Below are positions 21,001 to 39,000 of a stretch of 64,000 bases of DNA, piece after piece. The DNA comes from Okamejei kenojei. Taxonomy: Eukaryota. Position numbers: made by a program. Each line of letters starts with the position of its first letter. Positions within the stretch are counted from its first letter, which is position 1. The stretch lies in assembly GCA_035221665.1 (NCBI GenBank), contig CM069151.1:19096001-19160000 (forward strand), read 5' to 3'.

Positions 21001-24000
21001 ATTACTTCTGTACAGACTGACCATTTGCAATGTTTAAACCTGTTTGCATAAACTAAAATTGAGGTTGGGTAGCAGAGCGCTCAATAGAAGAAAACATTTT
21101 TAAAGCAATAATTTGAAAGAAAAGGTTGAGATAGGGCAAAACTAGCTGGCATTTATTTCATAGAACATAGAACAACTAGAGAGCAATCCTGAACTACTAC
21201 CTACATTGGCGACCCTTGGATTATCTTTAATCAGACTTTACTGGTCTTTATCTTGCATTAGATTTTATCCTGTTTATCATGTATCTGTATGTTGGGTTGG
21301 AAGATTGCAACCTTCACGTGGTCCGCCCTGTTTTGACGAATGCAATCAACCCGCCGTGCACAATCAAATAAGATCAAATAGAACAAGTTGTACTGCAACT
21401 GTAGGCTGTACACTCCATATACAAGGAAAAGAAAATGTATCTGTATACTGTGGACAGTTCGATTGTAATCATATAGTCTTTCTGCTGACTGATTAGCTCG
21501 CAAGAAAACGCTTTTCACTGGCAAGCAATATGTCAAACTTTTGGAACCTCCAGCTAGAGGTGTTACAGTGTAAAATGTTTTTCTGCAATACAGAATCGAC
21601 AGCAAAGTTACTGACCACAATGACATCTACTCCCAGCTACAGAGCAGGCAGACCAACAGGTTGATTATTATCTATTTTAGTTTACTTTATTTTAGTTTAG
21701 TTTATTGTCCTGCTACATCTGGCTAATCTCAAAAATATGTTGATATATCTACCGACAGAATTGGTTTACACAGATCCAAACCCATTACTCCAGTTTTCTC
21801 TCTTTCCCTCCAAACAGCCTTCCTCACAATGTTTTCCTTTGCAGGCTGCAAATCCACCATCTGCTCTCCCTGATCTCCTTGGCAAATCTTGCCCTATCAA
21901 GTGCTGACTCTTTCAATAGATTGCCTAGCTTCTCCCATCAATGCAGTATATTGTGACATATGTGGGAATGGTCCTTCTTATCCTTTAGTTCATGATAGAT
22001 AATTCCATTAATATTGTATCCTTTGCATAATGCGGGCTAACTGAATTTGGTAACAGATTTGATAACTGAAGCTGAAGGTGACTGGGATCTGGTTAAGAAC
22101 ACAACCAGCAGAATCTTTTATAATCTCAAGATTGAAAAACAAGTGTGGGCAACCAAGTGTACAATAGAATATGCAAACCCAGCTGAAACATTGATGAGAA
22201 TATCAGCAGGGCTAGAGGGTTAGAATTGTGTGATAATACAGAGATGGAAATAAATAAATGGGAAATGTGGTGCAAGGTTCAACAGCCGTCAACCACTTAC
22301 TAGTTGTTGAACTGTTGGTTGTTGAAGTTATACGTGGCACCGTTACTGTTGATGTTGTTTCTATAAAACATAAAAGATGTCACATTTAAAGATGGTTATA
22401 ACGCATACTGTTGCTCTATGACTTTGTATCAGGTTCAACTTGTTATTTTTCATTTTCAGGATTCAGATGTCACCAGCAATACTGGCATTTATTGTCAATC
22501 CCCAAATTCCTCATATTGACGAGACAAAGGCAAAACTTTCCATGGCCAACAAGAGACATAACTGACATACCGTCTTTAAATCTCCATGACTGTGGTATGA
22601 AGACATCTCCTGTTCTTGTACAGATTGTACAATGGAAACCAATGCCACTACTGGACAGCTGCAGCCTGAGCTAAACAGCTCTGCTTAGATATATCTTACA
22701 TCCTTAACTGGAAGTTGCATTGTAGCTGTGAGAGTGGATGGAGGGTGTGCTACAAGTTAAGCTGGCCTGAGAAATTATAGACTAGTTTCACTGCTTTAAT
22801 GGTATAGTCCTCTTCAGTAATGCAAAACCCAATCTCCCATAAATCGTCACAGGTGTTGTCGATTCTGTATTGCAGAAACACATTTAACAATAAACAATTG
22901 CATTAATGCTGTACACTCAGAATAAAACTGACCTGCTCAGATTTCTTACAGGGTGTCGAAGGGTGAACGATGACTGGGACCTGGCTGAGAGCATGATAGG
23001 GAAATCAAAATAAATCAGAAGTGGGGAACAATTAAGGTGGGCAAGAGAGTTAAAGGTTCTTCATTGGGAAAAGGGATCGAAGGAGAATATTAGTGTGTTC
23101 AAGTAGATCGGTGGATGTAGAATTGCATCTGGGACAGAGACAGAGGGAAGGAGGATGGGATAGTGTATGGACGGCAGCAGAGGGAAGTCATCGGTGAGGG
23201 ATAGAATTTGAAAGAAACAATGAGAAGTAATTCCAAAGCAAATAGTTAAAAAATGCATTATCTGAGAAAGCTCAGTGAAAGTTGTACATTGCTGCTTTCT
23301 CAATGGCTCACCCAGAGTCCTTGTGCAGACAAACTTGGTGCAAGGATAAACAACCGTCAATCACTTACCAGCTGTGTAGCTGCTGGTCGATGTCGTTGTG
23401 GGTGGTACCTTTGTTGTTGTTGTTTCTGTAAAACATAAAAGATGTCACAGCAAGTTATAATGCACACTGTGGCTCGATGACCGTATCAGGTCCAACTTCT
23501 CATTTTTAATTTCAGGGTGTAGGTTCCACCACCAATGCAGGCATTTATTGTTAATTCACAATTGCCCCATGTTAAGGATGCAATTGCTCAACCTTCCATC
23601 AGCAGCCTTTTGTGTTTCCATTCATCACATTCAGTTAGATTGTCATGTTAACAATAGATTTTCTTCTTCATGTTGCCCTTTGAATTGAAACATCAATCCA
23701 ATTATGCCATCCTATCAAAGCAATCAATTGGGAAGAATAATGTGAGATAGAATCAGAGTGATATTTTGTTCAATGATGGAAGAATAAACCAGGTTCCTTT
23801 GGAGAGCAACTGTGGGCCAGAAGTACAGTAATCCCACTGTTATCTGTCTAGTTTGCTAGTAGATGGTAGTAGATGATGTTGTGGTCTGAAACTCTGTTGG
23901 TGAAGTTGTTTCTAAATGGTGATAAGGAGTGAGAGAGGGTTAAAGAAGGGAAGAGTAAGAGTTCCTCATAGGGAAAAGAACCAAGTTGAAGGATACTCTG

Positions 24001-36000: not shown

Positions 36001-39000
36001 CCACAGCTACAATTAATTCCAAAACTAATAGTTAAAAAATGCATTATCTGAGAAAGCTCAGTGAAAGTTGTACATTGCTGCTTTCTCAATGGCTCACCCA
36101 GAGTCCTTTTGCAGACAAACTTGGTGCAAGGATAAACAACCGTCAATCACTTACCAGCTGTGTAGCTGCTGGTCGATGTCGTTGTGGGTGGTACCTTTGT
36201 TGTTGTTGTTTCTGTAAAACATAAAAGATGTCACAGCAAGTTATAATGCACACTGTGGCTCGATGACCGTATCAGGTCCAACTTCTCATTTTTAATTTCA
36301 GGGTGTAGGTTCCACCACCAATGCAGGCATTTATTGTTAATTCACAATTGCCCCATGTTAAGGATGCAATTGCTCAACCTTCCATCAGCAGCCTTTTGTG
36401 TTTCCATTCATCACATTCAGTTAGATTGTCATGTTAACAATAGATTTTCTTCTTCATGTTGCCCTTTGAATTGAAACATCAATCCAATTATGCCATCCTA
36501 TCAAAGCAATCAATTGGGAAGAATAATGTGAGATAGAATCAGAGTGATATTTTGTTCAATAATGGAAGAATAAACCAGGTTCCTTTGGAGAGCAACTGTG
36601 GGCCAGAAGTACAGTAATCCCACTGTTATCTGTCTAGTTTGCTAGTAGATGGTAGTAGATGATGTTGTGGTCTGAAACTCTGTTGGTGAAGTTGTTTCTA
36701 AATGGTGATAAGGAGTGAGAGAGGGTTAAAGAAGGGAAGAGTAAGAGTTCCTCATAGGGAAAAGAACCAAGTTGAAGGATACTCTGTACTTTAGATCAGT
36801 GGCTTGAGAATTGCTGCTGCAAATAGACAGAGGGAAGGAGGATGGGAGAGTTTATGGACCGCAGCAGAAGGACGTCGTCGGTGAGGGCTAGAATTTTAAG
36901 AAACTGAGAAGTAGCGTGGCCAAATGAAGGGCGGGAATTAATGGAAAGAATATGGGCTGGATAGTTTGTACAGAGTTCATTAGAGGGGAAACTTGATGGA
37001 TTGAAATGCATGTGGAACTCTCACTGAAACATAATAAAATTCCAAATGCCCCTTCAATAAAAGATAGTTTCCTTGCACATAACTGGCATATTTACCAGAA
37101 ATTGTTGTTGTTGATGTTGTACTTGAAGTTGTTGTTGCTACATACTCATAGCAAATTCGAATTTGATAGTCAAGACAGATGTTGACTTCCTCCAATGAAT
37201 CATCGGAGACTCTGCAGACCAGTCCTACGACTGGGTCACAGGTCACATTGTCTGGTGATTCACTTATTGGCCACTCAGGATAATGGACAAATTGGCATCC
37301 TATCAAAGCAATTGCCACAAAGAGTCGCCACACTGACGGTTACCAATGCCTGAAACAGTCCGTTCTGTATAATGTCTCAGGACCCTGCCATCATGATGCA
37401 CCAAGATCTAATAAGAACTTAGTCATCAACCTTGCCCCATTCCCAGTCTCCTTATTTCTATTCTTGATTGTGCTTACAAACCTGGTCTACACTGGCCAGC
37501 CTCTGTGTCGGCACCTGCTTCTGTGAAAATTATCACCTCCTGCTCTCTAACTCCAGGCAACTTTGGCCTCGTCTTTGGCTGAAGATCTCAGCAGTGATTC
37601 CACCACTGACCAGATGCACCATGCACCACCGAGCTGAACTACTAGATGCACGATTGAGCAGAACTTCTAGCTCACTAATTGGGGCGCACTGCTGTCTCAA
37701 TGCATTCAATGTATTTTTGAAACTGAGGAGATGATGCTTTAGTCAAAATATACAATCTTGGGATAAGTAATGAATCTCTGCAGCAACTCATGTACATTGC
37801 TAGATAATCTGTCAATTGGTCACAACTCTCTTTAAGAAGTTGGTTATGGTGCATATCAGCTCCTACCTCAACAAGAACCTCGACCCATTACAGTTTGCCT
37901 ATCATCACAATAGGTCCACGGAGGATCCGATCTCACTAGCTATCCACTCCGCACTGGACCACTTGGACAATATAACACTTACGTCAGGTTGTTGTTTATA
38001 GACTACAGCTCGGCGTTCTATACCATCATCCCCTGCAAGCTGGTTACCAAGCTCACGGAATTGGGTCTCTGTGCATCCCTCTGCAATTGGATCCTCAACT
38101 TCCTCATTCACAGACCATAGTCTGTTCGAATTGGCTGAAATACTTAATCCTCAGTAACAATCAGAACGGGAGCACCACAAGGTTGCATGCTCAGCCCCCT
38201 ACTCTACTCACTCTATACTCATGACTGTGAAGCCGGACACAGTGCAAACTCCATCTTCAAGTTCATCAATGACACCACTGTTGTGGGACGAATTACAGAT
38301 GGTGATGAATCAGAGTATGGAAGTGAGATTGACCGATTATCCAAATAGTGCCAGCACAACAACAAGGCTCACAATATCTGTAAAACCAAAGAAATGATTG
38401 TGGACTTTGGAAGAGGAAGGATGAGGACCCACAATCCTGTTTATATCAATGGGACGATGGTGGAGAGAATCAAAAACTTCAAATTCCTGGGCGTGCATAT
38501 TTCCGAAGATCTTTGCTGGGCCCAGCACACTGATGCAATATTAATGAAAGCACATCAGAGCCTTTACTTCTTGAAAAGGTTACAGAGATTCGGTATGTCA
38601 AAGAGGATTCTCTTGAACTTCTACAGGTGCACAGTAGAGAGCATATTGACTGGCTGCATCATGGCCTGGTTGGGCAACGTGAACATCCAGGAGCAGAAAA
38701 GTTTGCAAAAAGTTGTGAACACTGCCCAGTCCATCACTGGCTCTGATGTCCCCACCATTGATGGGATTTATCAAAGTCGCTGCCTCAAAAAGGGAGCCAG
38801 CATCAACAGAGACCTACACCATCCTGGCCACACACTCATTTCACCACTGCCGTCAGGAAGAAGGTACAGGAGCCTGAAAAATGTAACTTCCAGGTTCAGG
38901 AACAGCTTCTTCCCTACAGCCATCAGGCTATTAAACACTACATCCTCCTATAAGCTCTGAACTACAATAGACTATTATAATTAATATTGCACTATTATTG

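What the first reader, a model, noticed from the sequence alone, without database searches (positions are those of the whole stretch)
23229..37298. Mucin core built by recent amplification of a whole 1.83 kb intron-exon cassette, giving a CysD beads-on-a-string protein
Seen: ~7.7 copies with introns about as identical as exons; each encodes a ~113-aa acidic CysD exon plus a 19-aa PTS exon, all phase 1-1. The spliced product alternates CysD domains with only ~35-aa Thr-rich linkers. Established: human MUC5AC/MUC5B keep their CysD/PTS centre largely in one large exon. I recall multi-exon cassette arrays in chicken MUC2 and Xenopus integumentary mucins, so the principle has precedent. Inference: copy number varies between alleles, and exon skipping could tune the number of CysD cross-linking units per molecule.
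Basis: partly seen in the sequence, partly recalled or inferred. Interest (0 to 1): 0.75.

Follow-up and report, generated by a model that had tools for sequence, protein, structure and literature searches.

The report
Repeated two-exon cassette in shark mucin
A cartilaginous-fish mucus gene has recently copied a 1.8 kb block of two exons plus their introns about eight times, an ordinary way for mucin genes to lengthen their sticky, cross-linking middle part.

Summary
Window 23226-37299 is a head-to-tail array of a 1.81-1.83 kb unit with 8 register points. The 7 full units differ by 2-8 substitutions, and introns are as alike as exons.

The gene is on the minus strand. Each unit carries a 339/342-nt CysD exon (Pfam Mucin2_WxxW, 8.5e-15) and a 57-nt Thr-rich mini-exon. 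Both have ag/gt sites and phase 1-1.

- There are 7 whole CysD exons plus one half exon.
- One whole copy has lost its acceptor through a 16-nt deletion.
- The domain has 8 cysteines, not the 10 of human MUC2.

The array lies between D3 and D4 exons of a MUC2/MUC5-type gel-forming mucin whose nearest relatives are all chondrichthyan.

RefSeq mucins of Mustelus, Cetorhinus and Callorhinchus show the same pattern. Their internal CysDs are identical within a species and cluster by species, while the last CysD is orthologous across species. Multi-exon repeat cassettes are in print for human MUC16, chicken Muc13 and chicken MUC2.

Verdict: real, well read, a new member of a known kind. Copy number, transcripts and allelic variation stay untested.

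The parts
23226..37299 (-). Tandem array of the 1.81-1.83 kb two-exon cassette: 7 full units plus a 1.3 kb partial unit at the gene's 5' side
   Evidence: 8 register points with spacing 1814-1830. Pairwise differences are 2-8 substitutions. Edges are fixed.
35268..35609 (-). CysD exon, unit 7 (342 nt, phase 1-1)
   Evidence: Acceptor ccttttccag, donor gtaaat, open frame.
33439..33780 (-). CysD exon, unit 6 (342 nt; first whole codon Trp->Arg)
31625..31966 (-). CysD exon homologue, unit 5: open frame, but a 16-nt deletion removed the acceptor AG and polypyrimidine tract
   Evidence: By eye, an in-frame AG lies 18 nt upstream (gaaggaag|at) with a poor pyrimidine tract.
29795..30136 (-). CysD exon, unit 4 (342 nt)
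27968..28306 (-). CysD exon, unit 3 (339 nt); the copy used for all searches
   Evidence: Sequence read. PDB sequence matches; model and fold search. The Pfam PF13330 match (55.7 bits, cut-off 22.4) was made on the unit-1 copy.
26137..26478 (-). CysD exon, unit 2 (342 nt)
24310..24648 (-). CysD exon, unit 1 (339 nt)
   Evidence: Pfam 8.5e-15 on ORF 24305-24670.
37096..37299 (-). Half CysD exon (67 codons, C-terminal half of the domain) at the gene-5' edge of the array. It is preceded by a 17-20 nt copy of a unit-intron sequence that supplies an in-phase AG.
   Evidence: Pfam match to model positions 40-87 only. Sequence; junction.
36155..36211 (-). PTS mini-exon (57 nt, phase 1-1). Seven more copies lie at 34326-34382, 32498-32554, 30684-30740, 28854-28910, 27026-27082, 25196-25252 (one Thr->Ile) and 23369-23425.
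22301..22360 (-). Older, diverged PTS mini-exon (60 nt, open, phase 1-1) just downstream of the array. Its flanks 22268-22543 are 75% identical to the unit, and 23046-23229 is 78% identical to the unit's long intron.
19441..19500 (-). Another diverged PTS mini-exon (60 nt, phase 1-1)
39564..39623 (-). Diverged PTS-like mini-exon upstream of the array, with GA in place of the donor GT
17864..18391 (-). Large PTS exon (528 nt, 175 codons, 132 Ser+Thr, phase 1-1). Its 3' end and donor are homologous to the mini-exon.
   Evidence: TRF periods 18-54.
15166..15559 (-). Unique last CysD exon before D4. It changes reading frame near 15450-15465.
   Evidence: Two Pfam pieces in different frames, sequence, and two tblastn pieces against Pristis XP_051890192.
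47632..47700 (-). First PTS exon after D3 (69 nt, phase 1-1)
49452..63576 (-). Exons of the D2 C8 and of the D'D3 assembly (TIL, VWD, C8, TIL)
   Evidence: Pfam. tblastn to shark and sawfish mucins at 66-87%. PDB matches.
1..13015 (-). D4 VWD, C8, TIL and following C-terminal exons; the gene runs off the window
   Evidence: Pfam, tblastn, PDB MUC2 D4 region.
37880..39000 (+). Decayed LINE fragment (reverse transcriptase and C-terminal domain) beside the array edge, followed by the N stretch 39072-39219
   Evidence: Pfam RVT_1 and ALKBH8_N, frame reading, N run.

Best explanation
The region is the central 'mucin domain' of a MUC2/MUC5-type gel-forming mucin gene of a cartilaginous fish, read on the minus strand.

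In this gene the centre is not one giant exon. It is a chain of small symmetrical (phase 1-1) exons. One 1.83 kb piece of that chain has been multiplied head to tail by unequal crossing-over between misaligned copies, so recently that copies differ by 0.1-0.4%. The piece is 0.4 kb of intron, a CysD exon, an 885-nt intron, a 57-nt Thr-rich exon, and 0.14 kb of the next intron. The same process probably keeps the copies alike.

If spliced as the sites predict, the product carries up to 7 acidic CysD domains. They are separated by 33-34-residue linkers that are O-glycosylation targets, followed by a 175-residue PTS block and a conserved last CysD before D4. [quoted passage not shown]

Because every exon is phase 1-1, gain, loss or skipping of any cassette keeps the frame. 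One copy has already lost its acceptor and is probably skipped.

Shown: the array, exon anatomy, domain identity, gene context and the species-specific clustering of CysDs. Inferred: the mechanism of amplification, splicing, cross-linking function and allelic variation.
For: - Array and identity.
- Canonical splice sites and phases in all 7 of 7 intact-frame CysD exons but one acceptor, and in 8 of 8 PTS mini-exons.
- The other central exons are also phase 1-1.
- CysD identity: Pfam 55.7 bits against a cut-off of 22.4; MUC5B CysD 8oer 5.8e-14 and MUC2 8s03 2.7e-12; the top 8 Foldseek PDB hits are all CysD chains.
- D3 upstream and D4 downstream on the same strand, collinear with Pristis, Mustelus and Cetorhinus mucins.
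- Copies carry private and shared variants: a 3-nt indel in units 1 and 3, Tyr/Ser in units 3 and 4, a 2-nt indel in units 6 and 7, and 5 private changes in unit 2. That fits distinct paralogous copies reshuffled by recombination.
- Diverged (70-82%) relics of the same cassette lie on both sides, so the young array grew out of an older exon series.
- In the tree of 44 CysD segments the window's 7 form one clade (100/100). Mustelus (5 identical), Callorhinchus (8 identical) and Cetorhinus (6+3 identical) do likewise, while the last CysDs of all species form a separate clade (100/99).
- Human MUC2 CysD forms non-covalent dimers: abstract of PMC3195396.
Against: - There is no transcript, read-depth or second-haplotype evidence, so the copy number could be mis-assembled.
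- An N stretch lies 1.8 kb from the array edge and the edge copy is only half an exon.
- The last CysD exon has a frame change and one cassette lacks an acceptor, so the gene may be damaged.
- Exons are not more conserved than introns among copies (7/399 against 7/1433 variable sites). Of the 6 exon substitution events read change the protein. Nothing therefore shows purifying selection since the amplification.
- The CysD has 8 cysteines and has lost the second Cys of the CC pair that all 6 aligned relatives keep, so its behaviour may differ from that of human CysD.
Confidence: 0.6

Rival explanations
1. The array is old and of stable size. Its uniformity comes from continual gene conversion between copies, not from recent multiplication.
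For: - Every chondrichthyan mucin examined has internally identical CysDs that cluster by species, which suits long-running concerted evolution.
- The variant pattern is a mosaic. Units 1 and 3 share two variants that unit 2, lying between them, lacks.
Against: - Introns are homogenised as completely as exons over the full 1.83 kb, including indels. The array edges are sharp. Both fit unequal crossing-over of whole units better than short conversion tracts.
- CysD numbers and linker lengths differ widely between species (7, 11 and 8 CysDs; linkers of 56-247 residues), so array sizes do change.
- The two processes are not exclusive.
Confidence: 0.2
2. The array, or its copy number, is an assembly artefact: a smaller real repeat over-expanded, or a larger one collapsed and broken at the nearby gap.
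For: - An N stretch lies at 39072-39219, 1.8 kb from the array edge.
- The edge unit is truncated in mid-exon and abuts unrelated sequence.
- Near-identical 1.8 kb repeats are hard to assemble (general knowledge).
- A single-base frame change in a nearby exon may be an indel error.
Against: - Units carry distinct private and shared variants in a consistent mosaic.
- The truncation junction has a 17-20 nt templated copy of unit-intron sequence, which looks like a biological rearrangement.
- RefSeq models from three other chondrichthyan genomes show 5-9 identical internal CysDs, so such arrays are normal in the clade.
Confidence: 0.1
3. The locus is a decaying gene or pseudogene, and the cassette exons no longer make protein.
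For: - Frame change in the last CysD exon.
- Deleted acceptor in one unit.
- Half exon at the edge.
- An upstream PTS-like exon has GA for the donor GT.
- No excess conservation of exons among copies.
- The array CysD clade sits on a long branch of 0.91.
Against: - In the exon-sized tblastn pieces to the Pristis mucin (query 552-2163), the only break seen was the single frame change in the last CysD exon.
- 7 of 7 CysD frames and 8 of 8 PTS frames are open and all but one splice site is intact, though the copies are too young for this to weigh much.
- The frame change is a one-base deficit next to a C4 run and may be a sequencing error.
Confidence: 0.1

Closest known systems
Annotated chondrichthyan gel-forming mucins: XP_078090736 mucin-5AC-like (Mustelus asterias), XP_078391219 (Cetorhinus maximus), XP_042191378 mucin-19-like (Callorhinchus milii), XP_051890192 mucin-2-like (Pristis pectinata)
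   Same: - D3, then a run of near-identical CysDs with short Thr-rich linkers, then a distinct last CysD, then D4.
- D-domain exons are 60-87% identical.
- Internal CysDs are homogenised within each species.
- Cetorhinus linkers come as 1x, 2x or 3x an 82-residue module, meaning cassettes without a CysD. This resembles the acceptor-less unit here.
   Different: - The array CysD is only 52-56% identical to them.
- Its linker is shorter (33-34 residues against 56-247).
- It has RICY in place of RVCC plus a new loop cysteine.
- Their exon-intron structures could not be examined here.
Human MUC16 (CA125) repeat region
   Same: It is a mucin whose repeat unit is a multi-exon genomic cassette of almost the same size: five exons, about 1900 bp and 156 residues per repeat (PMC3431878 passages and table).
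   Different: It is a membrane mucin with a SEA-domain repeat. Its repeats are diverged and not near-identical, and the unit has five exons instead of two.
Chicken Muc13 and chicken MUC2 central regions
   Same: - Muc13: each PTS repeat has its own exon, the exons are nearly identical, and the authors propose length control by alternative splicing (PMC1552070 passages).
- MUC2: the repeats and CysDs span exons 32-45, and exon 42 is removed in frame (PMC3549977 passages).
   Different: Neither of those passages describes a CysD-plus-PTS cassette repeated with introns 99.6-99.9% identical.
Human MUC5AC, MUC5B and MUC2 central exons
   Same: CysD domains alternate with PTS stretches, and the CysDs within a gene are nearly identical (PMC9712336 passages).
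   Different: All of it lies in one large exon, with PTS stretches of tens to thousands of residues. Human MUC2 CysD has 10 Cys in five disulfides (PMC3195396 section 19), against 8 Cys here.
Fish CysD-only lateral-line mucin (zebrafish 'muc5AC' XM_684482; 27 CysDs in the skate XP_032903886)
   Same: It is a chain of many CysD domains in cartilaginous and bony fishes (PMC11765562 passages).
   Different: That family has no VWD domains and no PTS between CysDs. The array here lies between D3 and D4 exons and has PTS linkers.

Membership tests
Gel-forming mucin of the MUC2/MUC5 type | N-terminal VWD-C8-TIL assemblies (D1, D2, D'D3) | tested here: met
   The C8 of D2 and the TIL-VWD-C8-TIL of D3 are found on the minus strand at 49.4-63.6 kb. 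They match MUC5AC, MUC5B and MUC2 D3 chains. D1 lies outside the window.
Gel-forming mucin of the MUC2/MUC5 type | Central Pro/Thr/Ser-rich domains | tested here: met
   A 175-codon exon has 132 Ser+Thr and 25 Pro. There are 8 mini-exons plus CysD-exon tails.
Gel-forming mucin of the MUC2/MUC5 type | CysD domains inside the PTS region, and a fourth VWD (D4) after it. Both are absent from MUC6 and MUC19 according to PMC4948705 passages. | tested here: met
   PF13330 matches at 15.1-15.6 kb and in the array. VWD at 12.3-12.6 and 9.75-10.0 kb, C8 at 7.55-7.95 kb. Match to the MUC2 D4 region.
Gel-forming mucin of the MUC2/MUC5 type | C-terminal cystine knot; assignment to MUC2 versus MUC5AC/5B | not testable with these tools
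   The gene runs off the window at position 1. Per-exon PDB scores are mixed: MUC5AC scores best for the D3 VWD exon and MUC2 best for the TIL exon. RefSeq names of relatives disagree (mucin-2-like, mucin-5AC-like, mucin-19-like).
CysD domain (Pfam PF13330, Mucin2_WxxW) | Profile match above the curated cut-off over the whole domain | tested here: met
   55.7 bits against 22.4, covering model positions 1-87 of 88.
CysD domain (Pfam PF13330, Mucin2_WxxW) | WxxW motif near the N-terminus | tested here: met
   WSAW in 7 of 7 whole copies.
CysD domain (Pfam PF13330, Mucin2_WxxW) | Ten cysteines forming five internal disulfides, as in human MUC2 CysD (PMC3195396) | tested here: not met
   There are 8 Cys. 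The chondrichthyan relatives aligned also have one Cys, not two, before WxxW. The array copies additionally lack the second Cys of the CC pair, which all 6 aligned relatives keep, and they have gained one in the PYSYC loop. The disulfide pairing is unknown.
CysD domain (Pfam PF13330, Mucin2_WxxW) | CysD fold | tested here: met
   AlphaFold2 model with mean pLDDT 76.0 and pTM 0.66 from a 7-row alignment. The top 8 Foldseek PDB matches are all CysD chains of MUC5B, MUC2 and MUC5AC, with TM 0.50-0.60; only 1 has E <= 0.001.
CysD domain (Pfam PF13330, Mucin2_WxxW) | Non-covalent self-association | not testable with these tools
   This needs purified protein. No computation run here bears on it.
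Multi-exon repeat cassettes in mucin genes (MUC16, chicken Muc13, chicken MUC2) | The genomic repeat unit contains introns, and each unit encodes one protein repeat | tested here: met
   The 1.83 kb unit has two exons and introns of 885 and 547 nt.
Multi-exon repeat cassettes in mucin genes (MUC16, chicken Muc13, chicken MUC2) | Exons of the cassette keep the frame when repeated or skipped | tested here: met
   Both exons are phase 1-1, as are the flanking PTS exons.
Multi-exon repeat cassettes in mucin genes (MUC16, chicken Muc13, chicken MUC2) | Cassette exons are present in mature mRNA | not testable with these tools
   No transcript data were available. The RefSeq models of relatives are indirect support only.
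CysD-only lateral-line mucin family | No VWD domains and no PTS between CysDs (PMC11765562 passages) | tested here: not met
   The array is flanked by D3 and D4 exons on the same strand and has PTS linkers.

The most novel reading that the evidence does not exclude
The array may be more than neutral copy-number churn. It could be a fast-evolving cross-linker module in which concerted evolution has fixed a re-wired CysD in every copy: the second Cys of the conserved CC pair lost and a new loop Cys gained. Exon sites would then vary about 3.6 times more often than intron sites because selection favours diversity among the beads. The number of cross-links per molecule would be tuned in cis by killing or restoring single splice acceptors, as in unit 5, and not by changing copy number.
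Probability: 0.1. Interest if true: 0.55.

Novelty: new member of a known kind. Interest (0 to 1): 0.3.

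Why it matters
The locus gives a clean, fully sequenced example of how a gel-forming mucin lengthens its centre when that centre is split into small symmetrical exons. Whole intron-exon cassettes are duplicated and homogenised.

Together with the relatives' protein models, it suggests this is the usual mode in cartilaginous fishes, in contrast with the single giant exon of mammals. That is useful for annotating such genes, which assemblers and gene predictors often break. 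It is also useful for studies of mucus gel properties, because the number of CysD cross-linkers and the very short glycosylated linkers should affect mesh size.

It does not open a new kind of biology.

Tried and rejected
- **Protein word searches with the CysD exon.** The 'longer' search (197-2000 aa) found nothing at E <= 0.001 among 33 candidates. The 'near' search (61-196 aa) had no candidate. Both are limited by length class and say little. The exhaustive HMMER search found 168 proteins at E <= 0.001.
- **Self-association of the CysD core.** A two-copy job returned no verdict. It counts neither for nor against binding.
- **Rfam.** At gathering thresholds over the whole window there were 0 matches.
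- **Pfam on ORFs inside the unit's introns and on the plus strand of the array.** 0 families, so there is no sign of a nested gene.
- **MUC2 versus MUC5 orthology from per-exon PDB scores.** The results were mixed and this was left open.
- **MUC16 exon statements.** Not found in PMC4046138 or PMC12070838; found in PMC3431878.
- **CysD-only lateral-line mucin.** Considered and rejected on context.
- **A LINE insertion as the cause of the truncated edge exon.** Recognisable reverse-transcriptase sequence starts only near 37880, about 0.6 kb from the junction. The missing half exon was not found in the 220 nt after the N stretch. This stays open.
- **Not used or not available.** The N stretch was not filled or looked up. 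The bacterial and archaeal genome collection was not used because it cannot hold this gene. Supplementary files were not consulted.

Full report
**What is there.** The window holds a head-to-tail array with eight register points (23208, 25035, 26865, 28693, 30523, 32337, 34165, 35994) spaced 1814-1830 nt apart. Tandem Repeats Finder missed it only because its longest period is 500. Homology to the unit begins near 23226 and ends at 37298. The seven full units are 98.0-99.8% identical with gaps counted and differ by only 2-8 substitutions each. The partial eighth unit is equally young, with 4 substitutions and 2 one-base gaps in 1305 nt.

**Strand and exons.** The coding strand is the minus strand. 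In gene order each unit has a CysD exon of 339 nt (2 units) or 342 nt (5 units). An 885-nt intron follows, then a 57-nt Thr-rich mini-exon, then a 547-nt intron that leads to the next CysD exon.
- The acceptors are ccttttccag and gttttacag, and the donors are gtaaat and gtaagt.
- Both exons begin with two bases and end with one base of a split codon, which is phase 1-1.
- The CysD part is acidic: 15 D+E against 5 K+R, pI 4.2.
- The Ser/Thr-rich stretch between two CysD cores is 33-34 residues.

Every search and fold used single exons.

**Domain identity.**
- One CysD exon matches Pfam Mucin2_WxxW at 55.7 bits (cut-off 22.4) over the whole model.
- It matches solved CysDs of MUC5B (8oer, 5.8e-14), MUC2 (8s03, 2.7e-12) and MUC5AC (8ov0, 1.6e-4).
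- An AlphaFold2 model from a 7-row alignment is moderate (pLDDT 76, pTM 0.66). Its eight best PDB matches are all CysD chains with TM 0.50-0.60, though only one reaches E <= 0.001.
- WSAW is present in all seven copies.
- The domain has 8 cysteines, whereas human MUC2 CysD has ten in five disulfides (PMC3195396, abstract and section 19).
- In an alignment with five named chondrichthyan CysDs and the gene's own last CysD, all six relatives read RVCC where the array copies read RICY. The array copies have an extra Cys in a loop (PYSYC) that no relative has. The count stays even, but the pairing is unknown.

**Gene context.** Pfam on 193 minus-strand and 105 plus-strand open frames places these features on the minus strand:

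| Feature | Position (kb) |
|---|---|
| C8 of D2 | 62.4-63.6 |
| TIL | 58.8-59.1 and 57.7-57.9 |
| VWD of D3 | 56.4-56.7 and 51.2-51.6 |
| C8 | 51.0-51.2 |
| The array | 23.2-37.3 |
| A second CysD | 15.1-15.6 |
| VWD of D4 | 12.3-12.6 and 9.75-10.0 |
| C8 | 7.55-7.95 |
| TIL | 6.36-6.59 |

tblastn of three named relatives shows the same order, exon by exon, with the gene running off both ends of the window. The central exons outside the array are also phase 1-1. These are a 69-nt PTS exon (47632-47700), 60-nt mini-exons at 22301-22360 and 19441-19500, and a 528-nt PTS exon (17864-18391) with 132 Ser+Thr in 175 codons. The last CysD exon starts in phase 1. This is a MUC2/MUC5-type gel-forming mucin. 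Whether it is the MUC2 or the MUC5 orthologue stays open.

**Whose genome.** The nearest proteins are all chondrichthyan:
- Cetorhinus maximus XP_078391219 and Mustelus asterias XP_078090736, whose CysDs are 52-56% identical to the array CysD.
- Pristis pectinata XP_051890192, whose D-domain exons are 66-87% identical.
- Rhincodon, Heptranchias, Pristiophorus and others at 82-83% for one D3 exon.

I do not take the contig for human.

**How the array relates to its surroundings.** Diverged relics of the same cassette flank the young array.
- 22268-22543 is 75% identical to the mini-exon and its flanks.
- 23046-23229 is 78% identical to part of the long intron.
- 19433-19515 is 72% identical.
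- 39440-39655 is 78-82% identical.
- The 3' end of the large PTS exon is also related.

The young array therefore grew from an older series of like exons.

The gene-3' edge of the array falls about 140 nt into the intron after the last mini-exon. The gene-5' edge falls in mid CysD exon. Only the C-terminal 67 codons remain (37096-37299). They are preceded by a 17-20 nt copy of a sequence found once in every unit's long intron, and that copy happens to supply an AG in the right phase. Beyond lie about 0.6 kb of unrelated sequence, a decayed LINE on the plus strand and an N stretch at 39072-39219, which I left untouched.

**Defects.**
- The CysD exon of the unit at 30523-32336 has a 16-nt deletion that removes the pyrimidine tract, the AG and the first bases of the exon. 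By eye, an in-frame AG 18 nt upstream has a poor tract. I expect this exon to be skipped, which the phase allows.
- The last CysD exon (15166-15559) changes frame near 15450-15465. It is one base short of a phase 1-to-0 exon, next to a C4 run. This is either a sequencing indel or a real lesion.

**Pattern of variation.** Variable substitution columns are 7 of 1433 in introns and 7 of 399 in exons. Exons are thus about 3.6 times more variable (Fisher p = 0.018, or 0.044 if an adjacent double change counts once; post hoc). Of the six exon events, four change the protein (Trp->Arg, Asp->Glu, Tyr/Ser, Thr->Ile) and two do not (read). Some variants are shared by non-adjacent units. Nothing shows purifying selection since the copies arose, but the numbers are small.

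**Comparison across species.** A maximum-likelihood tree of 44 CysD segments (23 distinct) puts the window's seven in one clade (100/100). The five identical Mustelus CysDs, the eight identical Callorhinchus CysDs and the 6+3 identical Cetorhinus CysDs each group among themselves. The last CysD before D4 of all species forms a separate clade (100/99).
- Linkers in Mustelus are 56 or 98 residues.
- Linkers in Cetorhinus are once, twice or three times an 82-residue module, meaning cassettes without a CysD.
- Of the 150 best of 168 HMMER hits, 22 have ten or more CysD matches, up to 32.

Beads-on-a-string CysD mucins with internally uniform beads are therefore common. The window is one more case, seen here with its introns.

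**Mechanism.** The best reading is unequal crossing-over between misaligned cassettes, which both multiplies and homogenises whole units, introns included. Because every central exon is phase 1-1, any gain, loss or skipping keeps the frame. By analogy with human MUC2 CysD, which forms non-covalent dimers (PMC3195396 abstract), the domains would cross-link the gel. Seven of them, 33-34 residues apart, would give a dense, weakly glycosylated cross-linking segment. These functional steps are inferred.

**Literature.**
- Single-exon mucin domains in man: PMC9712336 (passages) and PMC13345508 (abstract start in a listing).
- Multi-exon repeat units: chicken Muc13 has one exon per PTS repeat, and the authors raise the alternative-splicing idea (PMC1552070 passages).
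- Chicken MUC2: the repeats and CysDs span exons 32-45, with exon 42 removed in frame (PMC3549977 passages).
- Human MUC16: five exons and about 1900 bp per 156-residue repeat (PMC3431878 passages).
- Chondrichthyan mucin inventories: PMC4948705 (passages).
- CysD-only fish mucin: PMC11765562 (passages).

I found no paper describing exon-intron cassettes of chondrichthyan gel-forming mucins in searches. Subscription journals and supplements were not covered. The supplements of PMC4948705 may list such genes.

**Verdict.** This is a real and tidy example of a known kind of mucin gene evolution, of modest interest.

Noticed in passing
window 15166-15559 (-), break near 15450-15465: The unique last CysD exon before D4 changes reading frame in mid-domain. 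The exon is one base short of a phase 1-to-0 exon, beside a C4 run. It is either a sequencing indel or a true frameshift in an otherwise intact-looking gene.
   Followed up: partly
window 31950-31990 (-): A 16-nt deletion removes the acceptor AG and pyrimidine tract of one cassette's CysD exon while the frame stays open. It is a natural candidate for constitutive exon skipping.
   Followed up: partly
window 37296-37315 (-), and 27364-27383 with its seven repeats: The array's truncated edge is joined through a 17-20 nt copy of a sequence that occurs once in each unit's long intron. It looks like templated filler at a rearrangement breakpoint, and it creates an in-phase AG for the half CysD exon.
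   Followed up: partly
window 24310-35609, CysD exons: All array CysDs read RICY where six aligned chondrichthyan relatives read RVCC. They have also gained a Cys in a loop (PYSYC). The Cys count stays at 8 and the pairing is unknown. The array clade also sits on a long branch (0.91) in the CysD tree.
   Followed up: partly
window 23241-36026: Among the seven units, exon sites vary about 3.6 times more often than intron sites (7/399 against 7/1433, Fisher p = 0.018, post hoc). Four of the six exon events change the protein.
   Followed up: partly
window 39072-39219: A run of 148 N lies 1.8 kb from the array's gene-5' edge. It was left as it is. Whether more cassette units or the missing half exon lie there is unknown.
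   Followed up: no
window 37880-39000 (+); 59243-60814 (-); 15711-15938 (+); 43519-44289 (+): LINE fragments lie in the mucin gene's introns. There are reverse-transcriptase matches at 38148-38345 and 59532-60619. 3' parts of one family recur at 15.7, 43.5-44.0 and 59.3-60.0 kb with 77-89% identity.
   Followed up: partly
window 10510-10935 (+) and 41002-41535 (+): Two G+C-richer stretches carry ORFs with weak GIY-YIG matches (5e-4, below the Pfam cut-off). They may be fragments of Penelope-like retroelements; that name is recalled, not tested.
   Followed up: no
window 39564-39623 (-): A diverged PTS-like mini-exon upstream of the array keeps its frame and acceptor but has GA in place of the donor GT. 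It is probably a dead exon.
   Followed up: no
P0001 (XP_078391219, Cetorhinus maximus), residues 1269-3840: The linkers between its identical CysDs are 1x, 2x or 3x an 82-residue module. Some cassettes in that model therefore lack the CysD exon, paralleling the acceptor-less unit here.
   Followed up: partly
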